DNA of 64,000 bases from Naegleria gruberi (Eukaryota): the NCBI GenBank assembly GCA_000004985.1, contig GG738868.1; one strand, written 5' to 3'. The notes under the pieces were generated by a model, which did no database searches, was not told where the DNA came from, and saw only the letters and a program-made list of their open reading frames with translations. A program made the position numbers and the translations under genes. Positions 3,191 through 50,447 of this stretch are shown piece after piece (position 1 is the first letter of the stretch; each line of letters starts with the position of its first letter).

Positions 3191-4609
3191 CTAAGCCCTC
3201 TGAACGTCCAAATTCTTCTTCTTATTCTGCTGTTGCTGCTGTTGTTGATCTCTAAAACATGGACACAATCTCCTCTTTCCATACATATCATTCTGACATC
3301 TGAAACGACTCTGTCTAGATCCTAGGATACAGTACTCACCATCCAATAATGGAGAACTGGAATCTAATACTGGATTTCTCTCATAGGTACAAACACAATT
3401 AGGTGCATATCGTTTCAATTCATCACATCGATTGATATACGAAAAGAATCTTGCATCACAAACTGAATCAAATCTTTCACAACAATTGGAACAACTTTCG
3501 CCTGCATCACATGGAACACTTCTCACTTTTTTCAATTCACTGAGTGGAATTGGATTTGAGGAAGGAAATGATGGTAATCTCAATGTATCATGATTAAATT
3601 CATATTCCTCATCATCTATATATGGAAGCATGAATGCTAAACTAGATTTTGGAATTCTCTTAGTGACAGTATTAGGACCCACGAGAGTATCATTACATGG
3701 GAAAAAGTAGGAATTTGGACAACCCTCCACTTGAAAGAGAACCAATAATTGAGATTGTGTTTGAGGTTCCATACAATTAGGGAAATCCAAATTATTTCTC
3801 TCAATATTTCTTTCATTTCCAACAGATGAAGTCACTCCAATATGTTTCATTAATTGATATCTATAAATATAGAATAATCTCTCTTTAAATCTCATTTTTC
3901 CATAATGATTCAATTGATGCCAATACTGTTCCAATAACCAATCAATTGGAGTATCAGTTTCTGCTTCTCTTTCTAAAAATCTCAATAAAAATCCCAAATC
4001 CTTTCTCTGAATTAAAACACCATTTAAACCGAATGAAAATCTGAATCCAACCCAATCCTTTCCATTCGATTCCAATTCATGAATCTTTTCAAATATTCTT
4101 CCAAAATGATAATGAGCTCCTTCACACATTATAAAATCATCTTCCATAATTGCAATTGGAGTATTATCCTTAATTCTCAATTGTTCATTGACAATTTTAA
4201 TCATATCATAAAAATCATTCGATTGATGCTTCTTTTTCGGTGATAATTGTGAATTATCAAAGTTATAACTTTCCCATTCCTTCTTTTTATGATAAATTGT
4301 CACATGTGCATCAAGTGCCGAGCTCTGAACCATAAATTCAACTTCTTCTTTAAAAGCTTCTCCTTTACTATTGAAAATTATAATACAAGGATTGAATAAT
4401 CGTTGTTTTAATTTTGCAATACTATTAATTGTTTGTCCTAAATAATGAAAACTATTTCCTTCCATTTGACGAGGAGCTGTCAGAATTAAAAAAGACATGG
4501 AACATTTGACATTATTTTTGGAGGATAGATAGAGTCTGAAGGTGAGTGCGGATAGGAAGAGAAAGAGTGCCTGCGAAAAGAAGAATATTAAAATTGTGGA
4601 TGATTTCAT
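3191..4609 (-). CDS. signal-anchor/secreted Cys-rich protein with glycosyltransferase-like luminal domain (family unassigned)
   Basis: ATG at 4607-4609. N-terminal hydrophobic segment ILIFFFSQALFLFLSALTF. A central acidic motif IAIMEDDFIMCEGAHYHF resembles DXD-type sugar transferases. The C-terminal region is Cys-rich (about 16 Cys; CSNCCERFDSVCD...CPCF) and ends in a Q7 tract. Confidence 0.45.
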   Translation of the reverse strand: MKSSTILIFFFSQALFLFLSALTFRLYLSSKNNVKCSMSFLILTAPRQMEGNSFHYLGQTINSIAKLKQRLFNPCIIIFNSKGEAFKEEVEFMVQSSALDAHVTIYHKKKEWESYNFDNSQLSPKKKHQSNDFYDMIKIVNEQLRIKDNTPIAIMEDDFIMCEGAHYHFGRIFEKIHELESNGKDWVGFRFSFGLNGVLIQRKDLGFLLRFLEREAETDTPIDWLLEQYWHQLNHYGKMRFKERLFYIYRYQLMKHIGVTSSVGNERNIERNNLDFPNCMEPQTQSQLLVLFQVEGCPNSYFFPCNDTLVGPNTVTKRIPKSSLAFMLPYIDDEEYEFNHDTLRLPSFPSSNPIPLSELKKVRSVPCDAGESCSNCCERFDSVCDARFFSYINRCDELKRYAPNCVCTYERNPVLDSSSPLLDGEYCILGSRQSRFRCQNDMYGKRRLCPCFRDQQQQQQQNKKKNLDVQRA

Positions 4610-7687: not shown

Positions 7688-8716
7688 TTATTTCAACAAT
7701 TTAACAAGATAATAATTGGCTTCCTCATTTCCTCCTCTAGCCGATTTTCTAAACCACTTAATAGCTTCCTCATTATCCTTCTCCACTCCATCTCCATTCA
7801 AATACATGACTCCCAAATTAAGCTGAGCATCAGAATGTCCTTGATTGGCTGACATTTCAAAATACTCACGTGCCTTCTCAAATGATTGAGGAATTCCTTC
7901 ACCACCACTTGCATAAATACATCCCAAATCACATTGAGCTCCAGAATTTCCTTTTTTGGCTGCTTTTGTGTAATATTTAACGGCCAGTTGGAATTCTCCA
8001 AATACTTGTTCGTAGAGAATTGCTAAATTGTATTGAGAGGCATTGTATCCTTGTTCAGCTGATAATTTGAACCATTTGAGAGCTTTCGAATATGATTGTG
8101 AAATGTCTCCCTCGCCATTCTTATAGAGTAATCCTAAATTATATTGAGCCATGGCAAATCCTTGCTTGGCAGCCTGTTTAAACCAACGCTTAGAATCCTG
8201 ATATGATTGTTTCACACCATATTCACCTTCCAGACAAATATTTCCCAAAGTATTTTGAGCTAGGAAGTTTCCATTCTCTGCTGATTTCTTGATCCATTCA
8301 ATTGCTAATTCGTCAGATTGTTCGACTTCTTCTCCATCCATAAATAATCGTCCAAGTTTGTATTGGGCAATGGCAAGATTGTGATTGGCAGCTTTTTCAT
8401 ACCATTCGAAAGCTTTCGTATTTGATTGTTCGATACCTTCTCCCTTTTCATACAGTACACCTACATTAAATTGTGCTTCTGGATAATCTTGATGAGCAGC
8501 TTTTTCCGTCCATTCGAATGCTTTCGAATAATTACCCTTGTCATGATAAAGATTCGCCAATTTAAATTGATATTCAGCATTTCCTTCAACTGCCAATTTT
8601 TCACATAATTCTTCTTCTTCCCTCTGTTTCTCCAATCGTTCTTCAACAATTTCTAACCAATTATTAAAAGCTTCAATTTCTTCACGTGTCGTTGACCAAT
8701 GGATTTTATCTTGCAT
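7688..8716 (-). CDS. Sel1-like repeat (SLR, TPR-like) protein
   Basis: At least 8 tandem 36-aa Sel1 repeats with the canonical pattern, for example AQYNLGLLYKNGEGDISQSYSKALKWFKLSAEQG and AQCDLGCIYASGGEGIPQSFEKAREYFEMSANQG. The table start is GTG; the first ATG is at 8714-8716 (MQDKIHW...). Confidence 0.8.
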   Translation of the reverse strand: MQDKIHWSTTREEIEAFNNWLEIVEERLEKQREEEELCEKLAVEGNAEYQFKLANLYHDKGNYSKAFEWTEKAAHQDYPEAQFNVGVLYEKGEGIEQSNTKAFEWYEKAANHNLAIAQYKLGRLFMDGEEVEQSDELAIEWIKKSAENGNFLAQNTLGNICLEGEYGVKQSYQDSKRWFKQAAKQGFAMAQYNLGLLYKNGEGDISQSYSKALKWFKLSAEQGYNASQYNLAILYEQVFGEFQLAVKYYTKAAKKGNSGAQCDLGCIYASGGEGIPQSFEKAREYFEMSANQGHSDAQLNLGVMYLNGDGVEKDNEEAIKWFRKSARGGNEEANYYLVKLLK

Positions 8717-8889
8717 TTTTTTTGTGTGCAATTTTAGAGCGACACAACATGTCACAATTTAAATATCAAAAATAGAACGCAATTCAAATTGCTACTTCTA
8801 CTTTACAATAATTATTGAGATTCGAATAGTTTATATTAACTTTATACAAAGGAGGAGTTGGCGAAAATGAGTCAAACTAATCCAGATAA

Positions 8890-11521: not shown

Positions 11522-13561
11522 ATGAATTTTAATTGGCGCCAATTATTTGGTTTATTAATTGCACTTGTTTCAGTAATAATATTATTGGAAAGTAATCGTG
11601 ATGGTTTAGTATTGAGTGTTGGTGCTGTTGGTGTTGTGAATATTACAATTCCTTCTTCAGGTCCTAAATTTCCCAAGTACGAATGTATGACACAAACACC
11701 AGTCAATCAAAAGTATTATCCAACCATGTACACTATCGATACTGATTATTATGAATTTTGTCAGATTGATGACAGTGCAAAGGTGCCGAAAATTGTGAGA
11801 GAATTGAATAGATTGGATACTTGTGCAGAGTTTTTCTGTCGATCGGATAAGGTTTGGGATTTTAGAAATAGTACACAGCTGTCATTGTTTGGATTCATGT
11901 TAAATCATTGTTTGTATTGTGAGAGTAATGAGTCAATGGCTAAGGAATTTAGAAATCAAGTGAGAAATGGCTCTTGTCCTGCAATGGTACTGCCAAAAGG
12001 GTTAAATTTTGTGGATGCTTTTTATGGAGTTGCTTCAGTTCATTGCAATTTGAATGATTTGAATTCGAATGGATTTGTGAACTTTCCACTTGTGGATTAC
12101 AACTTGTTCCTCTCTGAATACTTTATGAACGATTTTGCCAAGTATAGGAGGCAAGTCTTGTTGGAGAAAATTCCAGACAGCTACAAGGATGCCCTCAGTA
12201 ATGTCACTCTCAATTCCCTCGTAAGATATTATTTCAGAGATTATTCCGATTATTCATATGCCAATCTCACTCAAACAATCAAGTCACCAACTGACCTACC
12301 ACTCCTGTGCTGGTGCAGATATCAAGAACCATCAGTACAATCGTTCGGATATCAATGCAATGAATTCTATCAAAATGGCTATCTTTCCTTCATTTATCAT
12401 TACAGTGCCATCTTCTTTTCAATCATTTTCAGCTTTTACTGCTATGGAATTGTAATATTCATCATTATTCCAAGAGTTTATGAACGATTCTCCTCATTCA
12501 AACAAAGAACAGACATCAAAATGACATCATCCATTCCAAAAAAGATTTTAATGACATTGAGACACTTTATGGATATTGTCACTCATCCTCCTGTATTTTT
12601 TGCATTGGGATCTTTATGTGGATTTTTAGAAAATTTTGCAAGAAACATTTTCAACTTCAAGTCCACAAATCCATTCTATCAAGTTTACTTTTTCGGAATT
12701 TTCAGAGCACTCAGTTGTGCCTTACTATTGTGTGGCTATTCTTCATTAGTTATTTCATGGGCTCATGTTATTGATCTATCAAAGAGAAAGGCTGTTGTGG
12801 AGGAGGGAAAGACAGAAAAGAAAATCAAACTCAGAAAGGGATTGTCTGTCTTTAATCTTTCAGTTTTAATCATTTTCTATGTGGCTGTAATTGTTGTGAT
12901 TATTATTTCCCTGGGAATGTTTGTAATCTTCCAGAACGACACTACAGCTTGGATTTTGATGGCTGCTGCCATCTTGTTCTACTTATTGACCTTTGTTGCT
13001 GGGTTTTCATTCTATGGTATCAAAATTCTAGTAACTTTGAGAAAGACAAGCAACTTTGGAAGTTTAATAGAGTACAGATTCACAAAATTCATCATGGCTG
13101 AAACTTTTCTCTTCTTTATTGTGTGGGCTATTTGTTTCCTCATGTTGTTGACGTACATGTTTGGATTTGACTTTTTGTCACTCTTCTATGGATTGAGTAG
13201 AGTATTAGTTGGAGATGCTTCCCTTGTTGCCATGTTGGTGCTCTCCTCATACATTACATTCAATGAACCAGTGTTTGCAAGTTTGTACGGATGGAGAGCA
13301 TTGAATGTTTGGAAAATTGTAACATCATGTGGATATGAAATCTACAGAAAGAAGAAGGAAGCAAATGAACAATTAACAGTGAAGGAAATAGATTTGAAAC
13401 AAACCAAGGTCGTTGAAGACAAAAACGACAATTTACCAAACGACACAAACCTCAATTCGCCAGAAAATTCAAAATCAGAGAGTGTACCCAATCAAGTTGT
13501 GGATAGTAATCCCGAGGATTCTCAACAAGCCAATCAACACGAGCAAGTATCAAGTATATAA
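11522..13561 (+). CDS. 7TM receptor-like protein with signal peptide and about 290-aa Cys-rich N-terminal ectodomain
   Basis: The table ORF starts at TTG 11456. The first ATG is 11522 (MNFNWRQLFGLLIALVSVIILLE), a signal peptide. The ectodomain has about 14 Cys and N-glycosylation sequons. It is followed by seven hydrophobic helices, for example IFFSIIFSFYCYGIVIFIII and FLFFIVWAICFLMLLTYMFGF. The C-terminal tail is S/N-rich. It is transcribed divergently from the G-alpha gene. Confidence 0.6.
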   Translation: MNFNWRQLFGLLIALVSVIILLESNRDGLVLSVGAVGVVNITIPSSGPKFPKYECMTQTPVNQKYYPTMYTIDTDYYEFCQIDDSAKVPKIVRELNRLDTCAEFFCRSDKVWDFRNSTQLSLFGFMLNHCLYCESNESMAKEFRNQVRNGSCPAMVLPKGLNFVDAFYGVASVHCNLNDLNSNGFVNFPLVDYNLFLSEYFMNDFAKYRRQVLLEKIPDSYKDALSNVTLNSLVRYYFRDYSDYSYANLTQTIKSPTDLPLLCWCRYQEPSVQSFGYQCNEFYQNGYLSFIYHYSAIFFSIIFSFYCYGIVIFIIIPRVYERFSSFKQRTDIKMTSSIPKKILMTLRHFMDIVTHPPVFFALGSLCGFLENFARNIFNFKSTNPFYQVYFFGIFRALSCALLLCGYSSLVISWAHVIDLSKRKAVVEEGKTEKKIKLRKGLSVFNLSVLIIFYVAVIVVIIISLGMFVIFQNDTTAWILMAAAILFYLLTFVAGFSFYGIKILVTLRKTSNFGSLIEYRFTKFIMAETFLFFIVWAICFLMLLTYMFGFDFLSLFYGLSRVLVGDASLVAMLVLSSYITFNEPVFASLYGWRALNVWKIVTSCGYEIYRKKKEANEQLTVKEIDLKQTKVVEDKNDNLPNDTNLNSPENSKSESVPNQVVDSNPEDSQQANQHEQVSSI

Positions 13562-13702: not shown

Positions 13703-14272
13703 ATGGACGGAATTAATTTACTCGAAACTGATCATACCAAGCTTCGTGACAAGATTTCACAATTCAGAAATAATGATAACTGGACAAGTCGTCAACTGTT
13801 GATCAAGGAAATTATTTCAAATGTGTGCCAACACACTTCTGCTGAGGAAAGATATCTCTACGATTTGATTACCCAAAAATTCGACAATGGAAAATTCCTC
13901 TACGATAAGCAATTGATCGACAATCAAGTCCACAAGGAAATGATGCAATTCTTACTCGACAAGATTGATATTCTCTCAGTTGGAAATATGTCATTCCGTG
14001 ATTCCTATCAACAAGAATGTGAAAAACTCTTCTCAGTTCTCGAAGATCACATGAAGGAAGAAGAACAATTAGTTTTCCCTAAACTTCGTGAAACTCTCAA
14101 CACTACTGAATTGAGTGATTTGTACAAGAATTTGGAATGGGCAAAACAAAATGCTCCAACCAGACCACATCCATCAACTCCAGTTGTTGGATCAAAGATT
14201 TTACATCCAGTTGCTGGACTTGTTGATTCACTTACTGAAAGTTTGACTGGAACTACTAATGTTAACAAGTAA
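13703..14272 (+). CDS. hemerythrin-like (HHE cation-binding) domain protein
   Basis: ATG at 13703. His/Glu spacing (HTKLRD...HTSAEE...HKEMMQFL...HMKEEEQLVFPKL) fits the four-helix H..HxxxE pattern of hemerythrin-like domains. This assignment is moderate only. Confidence 0.4.
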   Translation: MDGINLLETDHTKLRDKISQFRNNDNWTSRQLLIKEIISNVCQHTSAEERYLYDLITQKFDNGKFLYDKQLIDNQVHKEMMQFLLDKIDILSVGNMSFRDSYQQECEKLFSVLEDHMKEEEQLVFPKLRETLNTTELSDLYKNLEWAKQNAPTRPHPSTPVVGSKILHPVAGLVDSLTESLTGTTNVNK

Positions 14273-14631: not shown

Positions 14632-16120
14632 ATGAATCCCGTAGATCCGAATTGGATTGAAACTCAACATCGTTCCTTTTTAAATTGGACGAATAGTCAA
14701 CTACGAAACAAACATGTTCAATTGACTAATTTAACAGAAGATTTAAAGAGTGGAGTCCATTTACTTGAATTACTCTCCGAATTACTTCATACTCCAATAC
14801 ACATTCCAATTACAAATCCACAGTTTAGAATACAAATGATGAATAACTTGACAGAAGCTTTGGAAATTATTCGAAAGGATTGTGACATTTCCTTGATAAA
14901 TATTGATTCGAATGATATAGTAGATGGAAATACCAAGTTAGTTTTAGCATTAATTCACTCATTGATGTATAAATATCAAGTATGTAAAGCAATGAGTGAT
15001 GACAGAAATGTCATTGACAAGAATACGCCAATGACAGTTGTTGAAAAGCAATTAATTGATTGGTTGAATTCAATTTTATATAATTCTCAACCTGTAATTA
15101 CAAATATTACAAATGATTGGACAAATGGTGAACATTTGAAAAATCTAGTTCATTATTTTCTTCCACATAATTTCGAACAAGTATTCGAAAGTTTGAATTC
15201 AATGAATCCGACTGAGAAAATTGCAGAATGTATTAAATTAGCTGATCAAGAATTGAAAATTCCAAAGATTTTAGAAGCTCAAGATATTTCCAATGGTCCA
15301 GATCAATTTTCCATGTTGGCTTATTTATCCTATTATAGAATGGCAATTAAGAAACAATTAGATCAGAAACCACCATTGGTAGAAACTGTTTCTAATACTC
15401 CTCCTCTTCCTCAACCAACAACCAATAGAAGTGGTACAAGTTCCTCCTCCTCCTCAACAACAACCATCATTGGTAGCTCAACAAGTTCCTCCTCCACCAA
15501 TTCAAGTCGAAACTAAACCAATTTCACAGCCAACAGTTTCTTCTATGAATTTTGATGATATTTCAAGTGCTCCACCATTGTCTCCTCCTTCCATTGATGA
15601 GCAAAAATTTAATTATCAACAACAACCTCCAGTCCAGAATTGGAATTTACAACCAAGTCAACCAGTCCAACCAGTTCAATATTATCCACAATCTCATCAA
15701 CAATCATTGACCAAATCAACCTATCTTCCAGATCAATCCAATCAAGCAAATTCTCACATTTCTTCATTATATTCACCTGGAAATTCAAATTCTGTTCAAC
15801 TCATTCCACAAATTCCTTCTCCAAATCAACAAGTGTACGGACAAGAAAACAATCATCAATCATTGATGGTTCCACCACCTCTAATGCCAACACAATCATT
15901 GCAACCATACATGGATCCATATCAACAGTTTAATGGAATACCAACTCAACACATGATGATGATGAATCAATATTCTCCTCAAATGCAACCTCCTCCACAA
16001 ATGCCTCCACAACAGCAACGACAACCAATGATTATCACCACAACTACTACTACAAATAATCATCAAGTATTCACATCGGATAATATGCAATATGGATATT
16101 ATCAACAACAATTTTATTGA
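14632..16120 (+). CDS. tandem calponin-homology (CH1-CH2) actin-binding-domain protein with Pro/Gln-rich tail
   Basis: CH1 is WIETQHRSFLNWTNSQLRNKHVQLTNLTEDLKSGVHLLELLSELL. CH2 is VVEKQLIDWLNSIL...NITNDWTNGEHLKNLVHYFLP. The reading frame shifts by +1 between table ORFs 14632..15516 and 15431..16120, which overlap at 15385-15516. Either a short intron (for example donor near 15383/15395 and acceptor ...cattggtAG near 15476) or a frameshift joins the CH domains to the P/Q-rich tail (QVPPPPQQQP...QMPPQQQRQP). Confidence 0.6.
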
Positions 16121-20206: not shown

Positions 20207-22463
20207 TTAATGTAATTGACCATCTTGTGTATCCAAATCAATATTGGATGATATTTCAGATCTAGTATCACCAAAATCAGAGTATGAACTATATAAAGGT
20301 TGTTTCAAACTGGATGAATCAAGTGAATTGGCAAATTCTTTAACTTCATCTCCTCCAACTTCGTCCCTCTCCCTAACAGAAGGCCAAACTCCAAATATTA
20401 CAAATACAAATAAACATGAGATGACCAACATCCACCCCAAAACAAGTGACAAAATGTCATATTCATAAACAATCTTTCCATCAGGTGATTGATTTCTATG
20501 ATTGGTAGAAAATGGTTGAATGCACTCAGTTACAATATTCCAAACAACGAGTATGAATAATAGAACAGGTCCAATGTACTTGATGGAAATGCTCCACAAA
20601 ATGTAAGGTCCAAATGAAGTTTCCTTGGAGAATCGTTCCCTTACATGTTCAATAGAAAAGAAGGAAACCTGTTTGAAATTATTCCAATTCTTTTCCAAAC
20701 GGAATTGATTCCAACGTTTTGAAAAGTATTGGCAAATAGAAATCCAATAGGTTATTGATTTGGTTCTTCTGAGTGCCTTTTTCTTTTTTCTATTGACTCC
20801 TCCATCTTGGTTGGAAGAGAACCATCCAATCATGACACATTCCATCATGGCAATCATTCCCATTCCATAATTTCCAACATAGTGATCTACAATTTCCAAA
20901 ATATAATACCCATTGGAGAGTGTGAATGGCACTGCAATCACACAAATGAGACAAACCACAATAATTGAAACAACTAATCGTCTGGTATTTCTACGAGGTA
21001 TTTGATTCTTGACAATATCAATCATGGACTCTACAAAACACATTATACTGTTAAATCCAACAAAGACTAGAGAAAGCAAGAGAATGAACACAAAAATTTG
21101 TGGTGTTGGGAATAATCTAGAAACTACTTCAATCATGACGAATAGAGGACTCGCAATCGCAGGAGTAAAGAGTGAATTGATTTCATAAGGACTGGTCCTA
21201 GTAGTCGAAAGATAACCTAAACTAGCATAATAGGTCAATCCACTAATTAAGGAAAATAACAATCCAAAGAAAATGATAGTCCACGAAGTGAAAATAGTAT
21301 CCTTCTTCGTCTTGTACTGTGAAGCATGAATAGCAAGAGCACCATTGGCAATACCATATGTGAAACATAATTGTCCAAAAGCTCCCAACCATAAATCTCC
21401 CTTTGCTAATAAGCTCCAATTTGGTCTGAGGAATTGCAACATTCCTGAACTAGCTCCAATTTCCAATGACACTCTAACCAATACAACAATCATAACCACC
21501 AGATACGACAAGCTCAATAATGAAATGATGACTCGAGAAAATCTATTGATGTACTGGGCAAAAACGAGCCAATAGGTAAGAAACCAGAAACAAACTAGAG
21601 AAACCAGTATTGGCCATGAAAGGAATCCTGAAAGATCAAATGAGTGATCTGAGAGATGCAATATTTCATCGTGAAAGAAGGTTTCTGGTTTATCAGACCA
21701 TGGAAATCTATATTTTCATCCAAAATATTGAAAAACAATGTTTCCAATTCAAATTAAATTGAAATACGTACTGTTCCATAAAAACATATCCAAAATAAGT
21801 TGCAATCCAACAAGTAATCACAGAATAATAAGAAGCAATAATCAAACTTCCAAAAACAATTGCTGCCATTCCAATTCCACTAGCTCTCCTATTCCACCTT
21901 CCCAATGCAAAGACAATCGATTGCTTGGCAATAGAACCCAATGTGAAATCCAAAATAATCAAAGGAGCTCCAATGATCACTAATAATACAATATATGGTA
22001 TAAAGAATGCACCTCCCTCGAATTGGTGCACTAAATAAGGGAATCTAATAACACTTCCAAACGTCATTGAGAATCCCACTGTTAAAATCAATGATTCCAA
22101 CATTCTTGCAATGACAAGGCTCTTCTTTTCATGTACAACAGAATTGCCTTGATCATTAGCAGCAGATGAGTAATAGTACAATGATGTCTGGTTATTTCCT
22201 CCGATTCCATGTTTGACAAACTTGTCATCAGCACCATGAGCACCACCACCATCATTAATACTCATCATTGAAGGAGAAGAATTTACAAAATGATTAGATG
22301 ATGAAATTCTGTGATTTGTTGATGGCTTATCTTCATGACTATCAATGGAACCATAATGAGTGGTGGGAATGTAATTGTGTTGTGAGGATTGCGAAAGGGC
22401 CCTTCCTCTCTGCTTATCATAATATTCATCATCATCATAATACAATTGATTATTATTCATCAT
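20207..22463 (-). CDS. SLC6 (SNF) sodium-dependent neurotransmitter/amino-acid transporter, 2 exons
   Basis: Exons 21772..22463 and 20207..21707, with a 64-nt intron 21708..21771 (GTACGT...ATATAG). The phase was checked: 692 nt, then 2+1501 nt. TM1 signature IRFPYLVHQFEGGAFFIPYIVLLVIIGAPLIILDFTLG (compare [22 protein letters not shown]). Downstream is a polytopic region ...GAFGQLCFTYGIANGALAIHASQ..., about 730 aa in total. Confidence 0.85.
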
Positions 22464-37576: not shown

Positions 37577-39157
37577 TTAATTTTTATTAAGAAAAGTATT
37601 TTCCCATTCTTTCATTGGAATATAACCTCTCGTTGATTTTTCTCTCATAACAGATAAATATTGTACAGGAAACTCAGCACAAGCTATTAAATGTTTTGGA
37701 AGATACAATTGCCCACCATATTCATGTTCCATTCTGATTTGATACAATTCTTGAAAGTAATGGTTATTTTGAGCATATCCATTTTGCTTGACCGCTTCAA
37801 TTCTCATTTCTAAAGTTGGTGAATTAACATATCTTAGAGCTAGACCATTTTGTTTGACAGCTATTATACAAAGTTCTGGATCAGATCTCACCGAATAATT
37901 AAAATACTGAATACTGGTTCCATTCTGTTTGAGCATTTTCTTAATAAAATCTCTATCTTTTCTAATTGGATTCTGACTTGGAATAAACTCTATAAAACTC
38001 TTATTCGCATGTCTAGACGCCATTTCAATCATATCAGGATCATTTCTTAAATCCGTACAAGCAAATTCATATATTATACAAGAGCTCTCCAAAGCTTTCA
38101 TCAATAATTTCTTATTGTTAAGAACTAAACTCTGAATTGTTGCAAGCCTATTGTAAAACACAAAGCAAGGCCAGGAATCTTGCTTGTAATACTTACTAGC
38201 AGCTTCAAGTGCTTCAATATTCATATCATGATTGGACTGAAATTCCTTGGAGGCATGGCACACTTCTAAGGCACATCTATTGATTGCTTTGCTCACTAAT
38301 TCTCTATCATTTTTGAATTCTTCTGAAACATATTTCAAGAAGTTAATCCCATCTGGATGACATGGTTGAATTAAATCGAGTAGCTCCATCACCATTTGTT
38401 TGTTGTTTCTTATTCTTTCAGAAACATGGATTAAACTTGGTAATTTGATCATGGAAGCACGGACAATCTCAATATCGTCTTTAAATTGTTTTGGAAAATA
38501 ATGCAAACAATCAAAATTTGAAACCAGTAACAGAGCACACTTCTTACTATACAGTACACTATCGGGAAGCCAATTAAACTGAATTTCCTTCCTCATATCA
38601 ATGGCTTGTTTGATAATTTCCACACTTTCATCTTCATTCTTTCCATTAAAGTCTTGAAATTCTAAACGACCTCTGTGAAAGAGTTTCAGAGCATCCTTAT
38701 TCAAAGCAACATCGTAATCTGTCAAATTATTCTCTAATGCAGCCTTGCAAATCATATAATTCTCGCGAATTCTCTTGGAACCATATGCAAGTGCTTTTCC
38801 ATCAAATGAAACACTATTAAGCATAAATTCATCATTATCCAATAAACAATCTGTTGAGGAATATAACTGAATAGCCTGTAATAGAGATCTATTGGTAGAA
38901 CTATCTCCATCGCTTGATAAGCTAGTTAATTGCTTCCTTAATATCATTCTATCGTTATGAAACTCTATCGGAATGTGAAATTCACTCATTTCTCGATAAT
39001 CTGTACAAAAAGCCTGTGTAAGAACTTCATCCCTCCGATTATTCCACTTGATAAACATTTTTCTCTGCTGTGAAAACTTGTTTAAAAGTAACCGATTAAG
39101 GGTTTCGTTTTTATGAGTCGTTTGTGTGAAATCGACTAGTAGAAGACAAACAGTCAT
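37577..39157 (-). CDS. DUF4116 repeat protein
   Basis: ATG at 39155-39157. The C-terminal half has tandem roughly 30-aa repeats of the DUF4116 type (PELCIIAVKQNGLALRYVNSPTLEMRIEAVKQNGYA; MICKAALENN...; ELVSKAINRCALEVCHASKEF). Confidence 0.55.
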   Translation of the reverse strand: MTVCLLLVDFTQTTHKNETLNRLLLNKFSQQRKMFIKWNNRRDEVLTQAFCTDYREMSEFHIPIEFHNDRMILRKQLTSLSSDGDSSTNRSLLQAIQLYSSTDCLLDNDEFMLNSVSFDGKALAYGSKRIRENYMICKAALENNLTDYDVALNKDALKLFHRGRLEFQDFNGKNEDESVEIIKQAIDMRKEIQFNWLPDSVLYSKKCALLLVSNFDCLHYFPKQFKDDIEIVRASMIKLPSLIHVSERIRNNKQMVMELLDLIQPCHPDGINFLKYVSEEFKNDRELVSKAINRCALEVCHASKEFQSNHDMNIEALEAASKYYKQDSWPCFVFYNRLATIQSLVLNNKKLLMKALESSCIIYEFACTDLRNDPDMIEMASRHANKSFIEFIPSQNPIRKDRDFIKKMLKQNGTSIQYFNYSVRSDPELCIIAVKQNGLALRYVNSPTLEMRIEAVKQNGYAQNNHYFQELYQIRMEHEYGGQLYLPKHLIACAEFPVQYLSVMREKSTRGYIPMKEWENTFLNKN

Positions 39158-46659: not shown

Positions 46660-47830
46660 AAGTAATAGTTTTATATTTTAATCATTTCTCAATAATTTTT
46701 TGCACTTTCTTGTGGTATGGTTTTGTATCTTCATTTGATTTCATTTTTATTTTTCAAAAATATTTTGTAATTCCTTTTTTGGAAGCCTCAGAAGAACCAT
46801 CATTTTTTTCACATCCCCTGTACTTTAATTTTCCAAACATTCTCAACCCAAAATCAATTCATCTCTCCACAAACTATTCTCCACCTTCACTTTCACCGAA
46901 ATATCAATTCTACCATTCATCCTTTATCTCGCTCAATTTTAATACAACCAATCAAGCATACTTCAATATTTTGTAAAAATAGCAAAAAAACGCCATACGC
47001 TCGAGTTATTACTTGTTCTTTCCCGCCAAAATCTCAGTTAGTATTTGTGGTAAGTGAGAGGACAACTCATTCTTGGTTTTGGTGTCACTCATCTCTATGA
47101 GATCTTGCAAACTGGAATGCAATCACTCTGTAGATGCAACGATATCTACAGAAATTTTACATTTTCCTCAACAAAATCTTGATAAACTTAGAGATAAATC
47201 TTTAGCCTATACTTTAATGCACTTTCTTCAAGTGTTTATTACAGTTTGTTGTCATGTAACAATATTTGGAATAGAGCACGAATCTTGATTGAGTCACTAA
47301 GTTTTCCTTCTTTACAAAAACCAAGCATATCAAAAAATCCCTGCCTAAATTGTTCCTAATTTTTGCTCTTCAACATTTGATTGGATCTTCAAAAAGAGAC
47401 TGGACGAATTGAATAGAGACACACTCATTACCGACTTTTGATGCTATCAATACACTTGTCTCAAAACTATTTCACATCTTCTATATACTTCATACAAAAC
47501 TTATTCGAAACATATTGTTAAAACTAATCAACATTATCCTTCTCGTTGTATGGAATCTGATACTCCCAATTGATGAACCTGTATTGTCAATTGACTGCTC
47601 CACTACATCGAAATAGTAAAGAGTTATTCTTTCAACATCCAAAATGTCACCCAAACCGCTAATTCAAATGACTTTCTTCTTCGCATCAGTGATTCGACAT
47701 GCTCGTGTCACCAATCCCCCATCATTTCACAACTAGTAATGTGTTCTCTCTGCTGAGCAATATTTAAAATGTCACTCGAGCCAACTGCCAATCAAATCAT
47801 CCACATAAAAAAATTCACAATTTATAACAA

Positions 47831-49064
47831 GATGAATAAGACCCTCTTGTTCGCATTAGCCATGCTTTTCTGCATGGTTGCTTTCGTTTCTGCTGGTCCA
47901 TCTGCCAGTGCTGAAACTCTCGCTGCCACCACATTGTGCAACACTTTAGGAAATAAAACTAAAGGATGTGTCAAGTCATCTAGAAAACTCTTGAAAAGAG
48001 TTCCAAAGAATAAGAGAAGACAAGTTAAGAGATTGTTAAAGAAGGCCAGAAAGAATGCTCGTAAAGCAAAGAAACAACAAAGAAAGCTCAGAAAATTGAG
48101 AAGATGTGCCAAGAAGGCTAAATCTTTGAAGAAGAGAAGACAATGTAGAAGAGCATTGAAGAAGGTTGTTAAGAAGATCAAGAAGGCTAGACGTGCTGCT
48201 AGAAGAGCTGCCAAGAAGGCTGCTAAGAAGGCTAGAAAGGCCAGAAGATCTGCTAGACGTGCTGCTAGAAGAAAGGCCAGAAAAGCTTTGAAGAAGGCTA
48301 AGAAATCCTTGAAGAAGAGAAGAGCTTTGAAGAGAGCTGTCAGAAAGGGTAGAAAGTTCGGAAGAAAGGTCAGAAAGGTCAGAAAGTGTAAGAGATCTTC
48401 CTCAAGAAAGACCAGACGTGCTGCCAAGAGAAGAGTCAAGAAGGCAGTTAAGAAGGCTTTGAGAAAGTTGAAGAAACAATTGAAGAAGGCTAGAAAGGTT
48501 GCTAAGAAGGCTGCCAAGAAGGCTAGAAAGGCTAGAAGATTGAGAAGAAGACCAGCTAGAAAATGTAGACGTGTCTCAAAGAAGTCCATTAAGAGAGCTG
48601 TTAAGAGAGTTGTCAAGAGAGCTGTTAAGAAGGCTACTTTGAAGCTCAGAAAGCAATTGAAGAAGGCTAAGAAGCAAGTCAAGAAGGCTAGAAAGGTTGC
48701 CAAGAAGGCTGTTAAGAAGGCCAGAAAGGTTGTCAAGAAGGTCAAGAAGACTTGTAGAAGAAAGGTCAAGAAGGCTGCCAAGAAGATTGCTAAGAGAAGA
48801 TCTGCTGCCAAGAAGGTCGTCTTGAAGAAGGCTGCTGCTAAAAAGTTGAACAAGGTTGTTAACAAGTTGTTGAAATTGAAGAAGAAGCTCGGTAAGAGAT
48901 TCAACCCAAAGAAACACATCCCAAAGAAGGTTAGAAAGGTCTTGAGAAAATTGAGAATTTCTGCCAAGTGTGTCAAGAAGGTCAAGAAGGCTGCCAAGAA
49001 GGTTAAGGTCTCAAAGGCTTTGTTGAACAAGTTGAGAAAGGTTTCTTCCAAGTGTAGAAAGTAA
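47831..49064 (+). CDS. secreted hyper-basic Lys/Arg-rich protein with regularly spaced cysteines (about 410 aa, more than 55% K+R)
   Basis: The table ORF starts at ATG 47769. A second in-frame ATG at 47831 begins a canonical signal peptide MNKTLLFALAMLFCMVAFVSAGPSASA. The mature protein is nearly pure K/R/A/V/L (KKARKNARKAKKQQRKLRKLRRCAKKAKSLKKRRQCRRALKK...). About 10 Cys occur at semi-regular spacing, and dozens of dibasic sites are present. Codon use is strongly biased (aag/aga/gct/gtt/gtc/ttg). Confidence 0.65.
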
Positions 49065-49295
49065 ATCAATTTCATTTGAATTTGAATCATTAAATTATTA
49101 AATACATATTTGGAAATTCAATTATTAATTTACCCATAAATTTGTTATTGTATTGCGTTTTGAAAAAAGCATGTAGATCAACAAAACTGATATGTATTGT
49201 AATATTATTTTAAATTGATTGGAAAAATTGTAAACTTTCAAAAAACGAAAAATTTGGTAATTCAAGATTAATTTTTTTTGAATTTGATAAAAAAA

Positions 49296-50447
49296 ATGCT
49301 CAACAATACTTTGGATAATAATTTTTCAATTAATCAGAATTCTGGTGATAATAATGATGGAAAAAAGAGAAAATTACAAATTGCCTTTGATGATGAATTA
49401 ATTAATCAACACGTTTCGGAGCAGATGAGTAAGAAGAGAATTCAGAATGATGAATTTGATTCGGAATTAATTCCTTTTTATCTGCAAGATGTATTTCTGG
49501 AAAATGTATTCCCGTTCATGAATGGAAGAGATTTGAATCGGATTCGATTGGTATGCAATAGTTGGTTTAATTTTCAGAAGGGAGATTATTTTGTATCGAA
49601 TCATGTGGCTCGTTTGAAATTAGAACATGATGTATTGAATATTTCAAAGAAAAAGACTCAATTATCTATTGTGAGAATGCATTTGGGATACAAGCAAGGG
49701 AAAATGTTGATTATTCATATAGAAAAGAATGATTCTCTTTCAGAGGATTTAATTGATGAACATGTATTGGATCCTGCTTGTACCAAACAAATAGATGATA
49801 CAATCATTTCAAAATTTGATTTTACAAAAATTAAATCAATTGTTGGATGGAAGGATGGAAAGAAACATGGAGAAGTTATTGATTATTTCAAAACTGGAGA
49901 AATTATGCAAATTGGACATTTTGAGAATGGAAAAAAGCATGGAGATTTTATCAAGTATTTCAACTCTCCTCATGTTGTGGAGAGGACATGTTCCTATAAG
50001 AATGACAAGTTGTGTGGTAAATTGGACGAATACAAGATAGTTCGCGATTTACAAAATCAAAAATTAGTGTTGAAAGATGTAGAATGTTCGTACGAGAATG
50101 GAAAGTATCATGGCGAGAAGATTGTCTATGATAAAGATGGAAAGATTACAGAAATTACCAATCACAAGAATGGAAAATTACATGGTGTTTCCAAATATTT
50201 CGAGGTTGGAAGAGGTTATTTGAAATTGGAAGTAAATTATCAAGATGGAAAATTACATGGCACCCACAAATCATTCTTTGCTAATGGAACACCATTTGAA
50301 ACCAAAGAATATGAAAATGGAAAGTTAATTTCTCAAACAATTGGCTCAACAGGGCGAAGAACTAGTCAAGGATTAGAATCTTCTGATGAAGATCAGGATG
50401 AGGAAATCATCAATTCAGACAATGACAACGAAGAAGATATTGAATAA
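49296..50447 (+). CDS. F-box-like + MORN-repeat protein
   Basis: The table start is TTG 49278; the ATG is at 49296. F-box-like: IPFYLQDVFLENVFPFMNGRDLNRIRLVCNSWFN. At least 6 MORN repeats (GKKHGEVIDYFKTGEIMQIGHFENGKKHGDFIKYF; YENGKYHGEKIVYDKDGKITEITNHKNGKLHGVSKYF; YQDGKLHGTHKSFFANG). The C-terminus is acidic. Confidence 0.65.
   Translation: MLNNTLDNNFSINQNSGDNNDGKKRKLQIAFDDELINQHVSEQMSKKRIQNDEFDSELIPFYLQDVFLENVFPFMNGRDLNRIRLVCNSWFNFQKGDYFVSNHVARLKLEHDVLNISKKKTQLSIVRMHLGYKQGKMLIIHIEKNDSLSEDLIDEHVLDPACTKQIDDTIISKFDFTKIKSIVGWKDGKKHGEVIDYFKTGEIMQIGHFENGKKHGDFIKYFNSPHVVERTCSYKNDKLCGKLDEYKIVRDLQNQKLVLKDVECSYENGKYHGEKIVYDKDGKITEITNHKNGKLHGVSKYFEVGRGYLKLEVNYQDGKLHGTHKSFFANGTPFETKEYENGKLISQTIGSTGRRTSQGLESSDEDQDEEIINSDNDNEEDIE

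What the first reader, a model, noticed from the sequence alone, without database searches (positions are those of the whole stretch)
11522..13561. 7TM protein with a Cys-rich 290-aa ectodomain that does not match the usual GPCR N-terminal modules
A signal peptide, about 14 Cys with N-glycosylation sequons, and seven helices give GPCR-like topology. I see none of the usual N-terminal modules (ANF/PBP, Frizzled CRD, GAIN/GPS, or the cAR-type short N-terminus). It could be a lineage-specific receptor class or a GPR107/TMEM87-like 7TM protein.
Basis: partly seen in the sequence, partly recalled or inferred. Interest (0 to 1): 0.5.

Follow-up and report, generated by a model that had tools for sequence, protein, structure and literature searches.

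The report
Heterolobosean GPCR-fold receptor, private ectodomain
This is a real, intron-free gene from a Naegleria-like amoeba for a seven-helix membrane protein with a GPCR-type fold, a distant resemblance to plant TOM1 proteins and a cysteine-rich outer domain unlike any described domain; it belongs to an uncharacterised family known so far only from heterolobosean amoebae and metagenomes.

Summary
Window 11522-13561 (+) is one 679-codon ORF. It encodes an N-terminal signal/anchor segment, an ectodomain of about 255 aa (11 Cys rather than ~14, and 6 sequons), seven TM helices and a polar tail.

An exhaustive profile search found 88 relatives. Every named one comes from Heterolobosea: Naegleria fowleri, N. 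lovaniensis, Willaertia magna and Acrasis kona. All are annotated as hypothetical, and none passes a Pfam threshold.

Profile-profile comparison links TM3-TM5 specifically to the plant THH1/TOM1/TOM3 family. hhalign gives 88% probability, E 3e-6 and score 47; shuffled and reversed controls score at most 17, and rhodopsin, beta2AR, cAR1 and bacteriorhodopsin score at most 18.

The window protein itself does not match PF06454, and TOM1 proteins have no ectodomain. The ectodomain carries ten conserved Cys and an invariant C-x-x-C. It matches nothing in Pfam or PDB by sequence, and it is not a Fz CRD, ANF, GAIN or GOLD domain.

Best reading: a lineage-restricted receptor-like family built on a TOM1-related GPCR-fold core, probably sensing something on the extracellular or lumenal side. 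G-protein coupling and cellular location are inferred, not shown.

The parts
11522..13561 (+). Complete single-exon coding sequence, 679 aa plus stop
   Evidence: ORF listing and translation. Homologues align from M1 onward.
11522..11596 (+). N-terminal signal peptide or signal anchor (aa 1-25; hydrophobic core aa 7-25)
   Evidence: Hydropathy and model helix 5-24. Most full-length relatives also start with a hydrophobic segment. Cleavage was not tested.
11597..12364 (+). Family-specific Cys-rich ectodomain (aa 26-281). Conserved Cys: C80, C101, C106, C130, C133, C152, C175, C263, C265, C279. Invariant N-x-C-x-x-C at 128-133. Sequons at N40, N116, N136, N149, N227, N248.
   Evidence: Conservation counts. 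Co-loss of C106/C152, C175/C263 and C265/C279. Model pLDDT is mostly 84-95 over aa 41-240 (two 10-residue blocks at 76-80), 75-79 over aa 241-260 and 94-95 over aa 261-281, with a mixed, mostly helical fold. No Pfam or PDB sequence match and no Fz CRD similarity.
12365..13261 (+). Seven-helix GPCR-fold transmembrane domain (aa 282-580). Family-conserved residues: P317, E370, G392/R395, W413/H415, Y453, F495/G499, K/R519-F-T-K-F523, D550, D565, Y577.
12725..13051 (+). TM3-TM5 segment (aa 402-510) that aligns with the THH1/TOM1/TOM3 family. Shared motifs: Y-x-x-L-x-x-x-W in TM3 and G-F-x-x-Y-G-x-[RK]-x(4)-L-R in TM5.
   Evidence: hhalign of the family profile against 117 plant TOM1 sequences: 88% probability, E 3.1e-6, score 47.3. 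Controls score at most 16.9. Specificity controls. Reciprocal HMM search.
13262..13558 (+). Helix 8 and cytoplasmic tail (aa 581-679). Conserved Y589 and C603; the distal part is polar, acidic and poorly conserved.
   Evidence: Model helices 582-601 and pLDDT below 50 after aa 633. C603 is conserved in 49 of 56 sequences. Palmitoylation of C603 is inference only.

Best explanation
The gene encodes a member of an undescribed family of type-I-oriented seven-helix membrane proteins. The family is so far confined to heterolobosean amoebae and unassigned metagenome contigs.

Shown here:
- It is a real, conserved single-exon gene.
- Its topology is N-out, C-in.
- Its seven-helix bundle is predicted with high confidence to adopt the GPCR fold.
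- As a family, the bundle is distantly but specifically related in sequence to the THH1/TOM1/TOM3 domain.
- Its 255-aa N-terminal domain, with ten conserved cysteines, has no detectable sequence relative outside the family.

Inferred mechanism: the disulfide-bonded, glycosylated ectodomain sits on top of a bundle whose outer loops 2 and 3 are almost absent (about 2 and 6 residues). It acts as the ligand- or partner-binding module. Binding is relayed through the bundle to the conserved cytoplasmic face: the W413-x-H415 end of TM3, the K/R-F-T-K-F start of TM6, and Y577, Y589 and C603 around helix 8. That face then engages a cytoplasmic transducer. The most likely transducer is a heterotrimeric G protein. 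The alternative is a small GTPase of the ARL8 type, as for plant TOM1.
For: Gene reality and family. There are 88 profile hits at E<=1e-3 and 24 at E<=1e-30. Named members come only from N. fowleri, N. lovaniensis, W. magna and A. kona, with several paralogues per genome.

Topology: 30 K+R in the inner loops and tail against 1 in the outer loops, an N-terminal hydrophobic leader, and sequons and conserved Cys confined to the N-terminal domain.

TOM1 link:
- Two relatives give sub-threshold PF06454 hits over the same helices: P0042 at 4.2e-4 and P0057 at 0.024.
- hhalign against plant TOM1 gives 88% probability, E 3.1e-6 and score 47.3. One reversed and 20 shuffled controls score 9.5-16.9.
- The family profile scores 42 against a single TOM1 sequence, and 9-18 against rhodopsin, beta2AR, cAR1 and bacteriorhodopsin (controls validated).
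- A plant-TOM1 HMM scores 14 of 75 family members above every reversed control.
- An Acrasis member is named 'TOM1' by its depositors.

Ectodomain: ten Cys are conserved in 47-58 of 58 sequences, and losses occur in pairs, which suggests disulfides. It has no Pfam, PDB or Fz similarity.
Against: - The window protein itself has no direct similarity to PF06454. There is no hit at E<=10, and it scores -3.8 bits against a plant-TOM1 HMM. The link is transitive, through the family profile.
- hhalign probability is 88%, not above 95%, and the confidently aligned part covers only TM3-TM5.
- None of the class A/B/C/F or cAR sequence signatures is present.
- Whether TOM1-type proteins are receptors at all is disputed (PMC5924551). 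Plant TOM1 is an endomembrane protein that works with ARL8 (PMC3234234 abstract).
- Nothing here shows ligand binding, G-protein coupling or plasma-membrane location.
Confidence: 0.55

Rival explanations
1. It is an endomembrane (lysosome, contractile-vacuole or food-vacuole) TOM1-like scaffold, not a signalling receptor. The Cys-rich glycosylated domain faces the lumen. The cytoplasmic face recruits an ARL8-type small GTPase or other trafficking factors, as plant TOM1 does at the tonoplast.
For: The only sequence-level relative of the 7TM core is THH1/TOM1/TOM3. TOM1 is a seven-pass endomembrane protein co-purifying with ARL8 (PMC3234234 abstract). Heavily glycosylated, disulfide-rich lumenal domains are common in lysosomal membrane proteins (general knowledge). 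No canonical G-protein-coupling motif is present.
Against: TOM1 proteins have no ectodomain. Adding a conserved 255-aa domain that has diversified across several paralogues per genome looks more like a ligand-recognition repertoire. No conserved lysosomal sorting motif was seen in the tail on inspection; the tail is poorly conserved. Location was not testable.
Confidence: 0.25
2. It is a GOLD-domain seven-transmembrane (GOST) protein of the GPR107/GPR108/TMEM87/GPR180/Wntless type, working in Golgi-endosome trafficking.
For: The gross layout is the same: signal peptide, lumenal domain of about 250 aa, seven helices.
Confidence: 0.03
3. It is a non-receptor seven-helix protein with a different fold and orientation: a PAQR/adiponectin-receptor-like hydrolase, a microbial-rhodopsin-like protein, or a transporter.
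For: AdipoR2 and rhodopsins appear in the weak Foldseek list, with E 0.3-0.8.
Confidence: 0.04
4. It is a divergent member of a canonical GPCR class (Frizzled/Smoothened-like with a degenerate CRD, class C, adhesion or cAR-like) whose sequence signal has simply decayed.
For: The fold is GPCR-type. Ten conserved ectodomain Cys equals the number in an Fz CRD (the Fz number is from general knowledge).
Against: No hits to Fz, Frizzled, 7tm_1/2/3, Dicty_CAR, ANF or GPS in the protein, in 65 relatives or in 24 ectodomains. hhalign of the ectodomain profile against a validated Fz8 CRD gives 0.2-0.3% probability. The family profile scores 15-18 against rhodopsin, beta2AR and cAR1, the same as shuffles. 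Only one sequence per class was tested, not full profiles.
Confidence: 0.08

Closest known systems
THH1/TOM1/TOM3 domain family (Pfam PF06454, formerly DUF1084; plant tobamovirus multiplication proteins)
   Same: Both are seven-helix proteins with a collinear helix order. There is specific profile-level similarity over TM3-TM5, with shared motifs Y-x-x-L-x-x-x-W (TM3) and G-F-x-x-Y-G-x-[RK]-x(4)-L-R (TM5). Both have been proposed as non-canonical GPCR candidates (PMC5924551).
   Different: TOM1 proteins are about 290 aa with a short N-terminus and no Cys-rich ectodomain. The window protein does not reach the Pfam model at all, and the best family member reaches 20 bits against a 25-bit cut-off. 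Identity in the aligned part is about 21%.
Canonical GPCRs (class A and others), by structure only
   Different: Sequence identity is 4-13%. There is no DRY, NPxxY or CWxP motif, no TM3-ECL2 disulfide, and outer loop 2 is only about 2 residues. No Pfam 7tm family is hit.
GOST proteins (GPR107/108, TMEM87A/B, GPR180, TMEM145, Wntless)
   Same: The order of parts is the same: signal peptide, a lumenal or extracellular domain of about 250 aa, then 7TM.
   Different: The ectodomain is mostly helical and disulfide-rich, not a GOLD beta-sandwich. There are no sequence or fold matches.
'Remi-sans-famille' GPCRs of choanoflagellates and other protists (bioRxiv 10.1101/2025.04.15.649019)
   Same: This is another recently noticed protist 7TM family whose only, weak, structural link is to TOM1.
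   Different: [quoted passage not shown] This protein has a large ectodomain, and outer loop 3 is only 6 residues. The two were not compared directly.

Membership tests
THH1/TOM1/TOM3 (PF06454) | Match to the Pfam model above its gathering score (25 bits) | tested here: not met
   The window protein gives no hit at E<=10. The best relatives reach 20.2 bits (P0042) and 14.5 bits (P0057).
THH1/TOM1/TOM3 (PF06454) | Homology of the 7TM core at profile level | tested here: met
   hhalign gives 88% probability, E 3.1e-6 and score 47.3, against at most 16.9 for 21 controls. The match is specific compared with four other 7TM families. The reciprocal HMM search agrees.
THH1/TOM1/TOM3 (PF06454) | Compact architecture: about 290 aa, short N-terminus, no extra domain | tested here: not met
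   The protein is 679 aa with a 255-aa Cys-rich ectodomain. Plant TOM1 proteins are 280-300 aa.
THH1/TOM1/TOM3 (PF06454) | Tonoplast/endomembrane location and partnership with ARL8 and TOM2A | not testable with these tools
   This needs localisation and interaction experiments.
GPCR fold (Pfam clan GPCR_A, structural sense) | Seven-helix bundle with GPCR helix packing and N-out, C-in topology | tested here: met
Class A/B/C/F and cAR GPCR families | Match to 7tm_1, 7tm_2, 7tm_3, Frizzled or Dicty_CAR models | tested here: not met
   No hits in the protein or in 65 relatives. The family profile scores 14.7-18.2 against rhodopsin, beta2AR and cAR1.
G-protein-coupled receptors (functional sense) | Ligand-dependent activation of a heterotrimeric G protein | not testable with these tools
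   No test was possible.
GOST / GPR107-TMEM87 (Lung_7-TM_R, GpcrRhopsn4) | N-terminal GOLD beta-sandwich plus the family's 7TM model | tested here: not met
   No Pfam hits. The ectodomain secondary structure is mostly helical. A domain-only fold search could not be run.
Frizzled/Smoothened | Fz cysteine-rich domain | tested here: not met
   No PF01392 hit in 24 ectodomains. hhalign against a validated Fz8 CRD gives 0.2-0.3% probability.
Class C and adhesion GPCRs | ANF/PBP domain, or GAIN/GPS autoproteolysis domain | tested here: not met
   No Pfam hits at E<=1 in 24 ectodomains, or at E<=10 in 4 full-length members.

The most novel reading that the evidence does not exclude
The five-disulfide ectodomain is a previously unseen ligand-binding fold. 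On this reading the family is a true chemoreceptor class private to Heterolobosea, including the pathogen Naegleria fowleri, and it couples to the expanded Naegleria G-alpha set. That would be the first case of the TOM1-type seven-helix scaffold equipped with an extracellular sensor, and so indirect support for a receptor origin of the TOM1 clade.
Probability: 0.2. Interest if true: 0.65.

Novelty: new variant of a known kind. Interest (0 to 1): 0.4.

Why it matters
Heteroloboseans, including the brain-eating amoeba N. fowleri, hunt bacteria and switch life stages in response to external cues, yet their surface receptors are almost uncharted. This family is absent from Pfam. All members are annotated 'hypothetical', apart from one labelled 'TOM1'. 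It is multi-copy in each sequenced heterolobosean, and no member was found outside Heterolobosea and unassigned metagenome contigs. That makes it a candidate lineage-specific sensor and a possible selective target or marker.

For GPCR evolution, it links the enigmatic plant TOM1 scaffold to a protein with an obvious extracellular recognition module in a distant eukaryotic supergroup. This makes the question 'are TOM1-type proteins receptors?' experimentally approachable in Naegleria gruberi.

Tried and rejected
- **Word-index homologue search.** The single protein and the 65-sequence alignment each returned only 3 relatives. The exhaustive HMM search was needed to find 88.
- **AF2 with 4 sequences.** This gave an unusable model, pLDDT 50. 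It was superseded by the 65-sequence run.
- **AlphaFold-database fold libraries.** Fold comparison was therefore limited to PDB, where the 7TM domain dominates the hit lists. The ectodomain fold could not be classified on its own, because no domain-only model could be made (cap reached).
- **Foldseek against PDB.** Nothing at E<=1e-3.
- **Consensus sequences against Pfam.** Consensus sequences of the TM and ecto profiles gave no hits.
- **Profile searches of PDB sequences.** The full-length and ectodomain alignments both gave no hits.
- **Paralogue search inside the window.** None found.
- **Synteny.** The N. fowleri locus and a metagenome contig share no neighbours with the window.
- **Exact look-up.** Neither the window protein nor its downstream neighbour is in the public collections.
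- **Literature.** No paper links Naegleria to TOM1. The supplements of the Acrasis genome paper hold neither 'TOM1' nor the accession. No TOM1 supplement text was held for PMC10576174.
- **Rejected readings.** GOST/GPR107-like, Frizzled-like, class C, adhesion, PAQR, rhodopsin and transporter; the reasons are given under rival explanations.

Full report
**The sequence**

Window 11522-13561 (+) is one uninterrupted ORF of 679 codons, starting at an ATG. The window is AT-rich, about 30-38% GC.

The window is eukaryotic and gene-dense. Neighbouring ORFs encode calponin-homology, VWD, SNF-transporter, ABC1-kinase, DUF4116, Sel1-repeat, Kelch-BTB, PQ-loop, lipin and hemerythrin domains.

All named relatives of the target protein come from Heterolobosea. 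No Naegleria gruberi protein appears among them, although N. fowleri and N. lovaniensis do. Neither the target nor its neighbour is in the public collections by exact match. I infer that the window is from a Naegleria-like heterolobosean, but this was not shown.

**Anatomy**

- A hydrophobic leader spans aa 7-25.
- A hydrophilic domain follows, to about aa 281. It has 11 Cys and six N-x-S/T sequons.
- Seven hydrophobic segments lie between aa 294 and 580.
- The tail is polar and acidic.
- The inner loops and proximal tail hold 30 K+R, and the outer loops hold 1. This fixes an N-out, C-in orientation.

**The family**

The word-index search found only three relatives, at 31-41% identity. A profile of these four sequences, searched exhaustively against 1.84 billion cluster representatives, found 88 proteins at E<=1e-3 and 24 at E<=1e-30.

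Named members are N. fowleri (FDP41_012754, _007134, _013261), N. lovaniensis (four loci), Willaertia magna (four loci) and Acrasis kona. The rest are metagenome or read-archive assemblies.

Nearly all full-length members share the same plan: a leader, 150-290 aa of Cys-rich sequence, then seven helices. The window holds no paralogue. There is no conserved synteny with N. fowleri or with a metagenome contig.

The following residues are conserved across 65 sequences:
- Ten ectodomain cysteines: C80, C101, C106, C130, C133, C152, C175, C263, C265 and C279.
- An almost invariant N-[YH]-C-x-Y-C motif.
- P317, which is invariant.
- E370, G392/R395, W413/H415, Y453, F495/G499, the K/R-F-T-K-F motif at the start of TM6, D550, D565, Y577 and Y589.
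- C603, just after helix 8.

Cysteines are lost in pairs: C106 with C152, C175 with C263, and C265 with C279. This is what disulfide partners would do. The inference is weak, because some of the absences may be alignment gaps.

**Known families, by sequence**

- Pfam gives nothing for the protein at E<=1, apart from a meaningless 12.5-bit DUF7131 hit.
- Nothing passes a threshold in 65 relatives.
- 24 isolated ectodomains give nothing.
- Profiles of the whole protein and of the ectodomain find no PDB chain.
- The only recurrent signal is sub-threshold THH1_TOM1-3_dom (PF06454) in two distant members, over the same helices. One Acrasis member is labelled 'TOM1' by its depositors.

**Testing the TOM1 lead**

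Pfam confirmed it as a full-length PF06454 member at E 3.7e-143, and it is 97% identical to a database protein. I then collected 117 plant TOM1 sequences.

- hhalign of the family's TM profile (60 sequences, aa 280-610) against the TOM1 profile gives 88% probability, E 3.1e-6 and score 47.3 over TM3-TM5, aa 402-510. With a looser setting the alignment runs collinearly through most of the seven-helix region.
- One reversed and twenty column-shuffled TOM1 controls score 9.5-16.9.
- Against single sequences, the family profile scores 42.1 for TOM1. It scores 18.2, 16.6, 14.7 and 9.3 for rhodopsin, beta2AR, cAR1 and bacteriorhodopsin. Those controls were validated.
- Reciprocally, a plant-TOM1 HMM scores 14 of 75 family members above every reversed control, up to 20.5 bits. 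The window protein itself scores -3.8 bits.

The link is therefore real at family level, specific, and distant. The window protein belongs to a divergent branch and is not a PF06454 member by Pfam's own criterion.

**Structure**

With four sequences AlphaFold2 failed, at pLDDT 50. With the 65-sequence alignment it gave pLDDT 84.3 and pTM 0.82, with both the ectodomain and the bundle mostly at about 90 or above.

The bundle has a long TM1 and an extra short helix in outer loop 1. Outer loop 2 is about 2 residues and outer loop 3 about 6 residues. There is also a helix 8.

Foldseek gives no significant match. Its best E is 0.078, although its list is also mostly GPCRs.

The ectodomain is modelled as a mixed, mostly helical domain, not a GOLD sandwich. 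It shows no profile similarity to an Fz CRD.

**Interpretation**

Shown here:
- It is a conserved, lineage-restricted gene family.
- Its orientation is N-out, C-in.
- It has a GPCR-type predicted fold.
- It has a specific distant relationship to TOM1-type 7TM domains.
- Its ectodomain has no sequence relatives.

Inferred:
- With outer loops 2 and 3 nearly absent, the disulfide-rich glycosylated ectodomain, together with outer loop 1, must form the whole outer face. It is therefore the recognition module.
- The conserved cytoplasmic residues at the TM3 end, at the TM6 start and around helix 8 form the output surface.
- The conserved Cys after helix 8 may be lipidated.

The transducer could be a heterotrimeric G protein. 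Naegleria has a lineage-specific diversification of G-alpha (PMC3971589). It could instead be an ARL8-type GTPase, as for plant TOM1 (PMC3234234). The data cannot decide between them, and the same holds for plasma-membrane against lysosomal or vacuolar location.

I put about 0.55 on the receptor-like reading as stated and about 0.25 on a non-signalling endomembrane TOM1-like role. GOST, PAQR/transporter and degenerate canonical-class readings each get small remainders.

**Novelty and score**

Lineage-specific 7TM families with odd N-terminal domains are common in protists. The GPCR fold and the TOM1 family are both known. This is therefore a new variant of a known kind, not a new category.

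Three things are new:
- An uncharacterised, Pfam-less family present in several copies in each sequenced heterolobosean, including N. fowleri.
- A private ectodomain with ten conserved cysteines.
- A link between the TOM1 scaffold and an evident extracellular sensor.

A recent survey found another protist family, 'Remi-sans-famille', with only a weak TOM1 structural link. Such TOM1-peripheral families are only now being noticed. Interest is moderate, at 0.4.

Noticed in passing
window 13703-14272 (+): A 189-aa hemerythrin HHE-domain protein (Pfam 2.1e-13) lies 141 bp downstream of the 7TM gene on the same strand. Its exact sequence is not in the public gene collection.
   Followed up: partly
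window 47769-49064 (+) and 47822-49090 (-): Two ORFs of over 420 aa overlap almost completely on opposite strands. The region has the strongest GC skew in the window (+0.335 at 48001-50000). Neither translation hits Pfam. It may be a biased or repetitive coding region, read open in both directions.
   Followed up: partly
window 20207-21661 and 21708-22463 (-): The sodium:neurotransmitter symporter match starts at profile position 168 in the downstream ORF. A second ORF lies just upstream on the same strand. This looks like one gene split by a short intron or a frameshift.
   Followed up: no
window 14632-15516 and 15431-16120 (+): An ORF with a tandem calponin-homology domain overlaps the start of a second same-strand ORF in another frame. 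This is probably one gene with an intron.
   Followed up: no
window 7688-8755 (-) and 37577-39157 (-): One protein has six Sel1 repeats (1.1e-69) and another has DUF4116 repeats (2.8e-39). From my own knowledge, both repeat types are expanded in Naegleria, which fits the inferred source.
   Followed up: no
whole window / database: No Naegleria gruberi protein appears among the named family members, while N. fowleri, N. lovaniensis, Willaertia and Acrasis do. The best identity to the window protein is only 42%. Either the source genome is absent from the collections, or this family evolves unusually fast.
   Followed up: partly
window 11906-11920 (aa 129-133): The C-x-x-C pair C130/C133 in the ectodomain is present in all 58 aligned ectodomains and sits in the conserved motif N-[YH]-C-x-Y-C. 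This could be two separate structural disulfides, or a redox or metal site.
   Followed up: no
method (vs 25): For this low-complexity, AT-rich-genome membrane protein, the word-index protein search recovered 3 of the 88 relatives found by the exhaustive HMM search. That held even when it was given a 65-sequence alignment.
   Followed up: yes
window 3191-4609 (-): A 471-aa ORF has a C-terminal match to glycosyltransferase family 18 (MGAT5-like; 4.4e-8, just above the cut-off). This is an N-glycan branching enzyme type, unusual outside animals.
   Followed up: no
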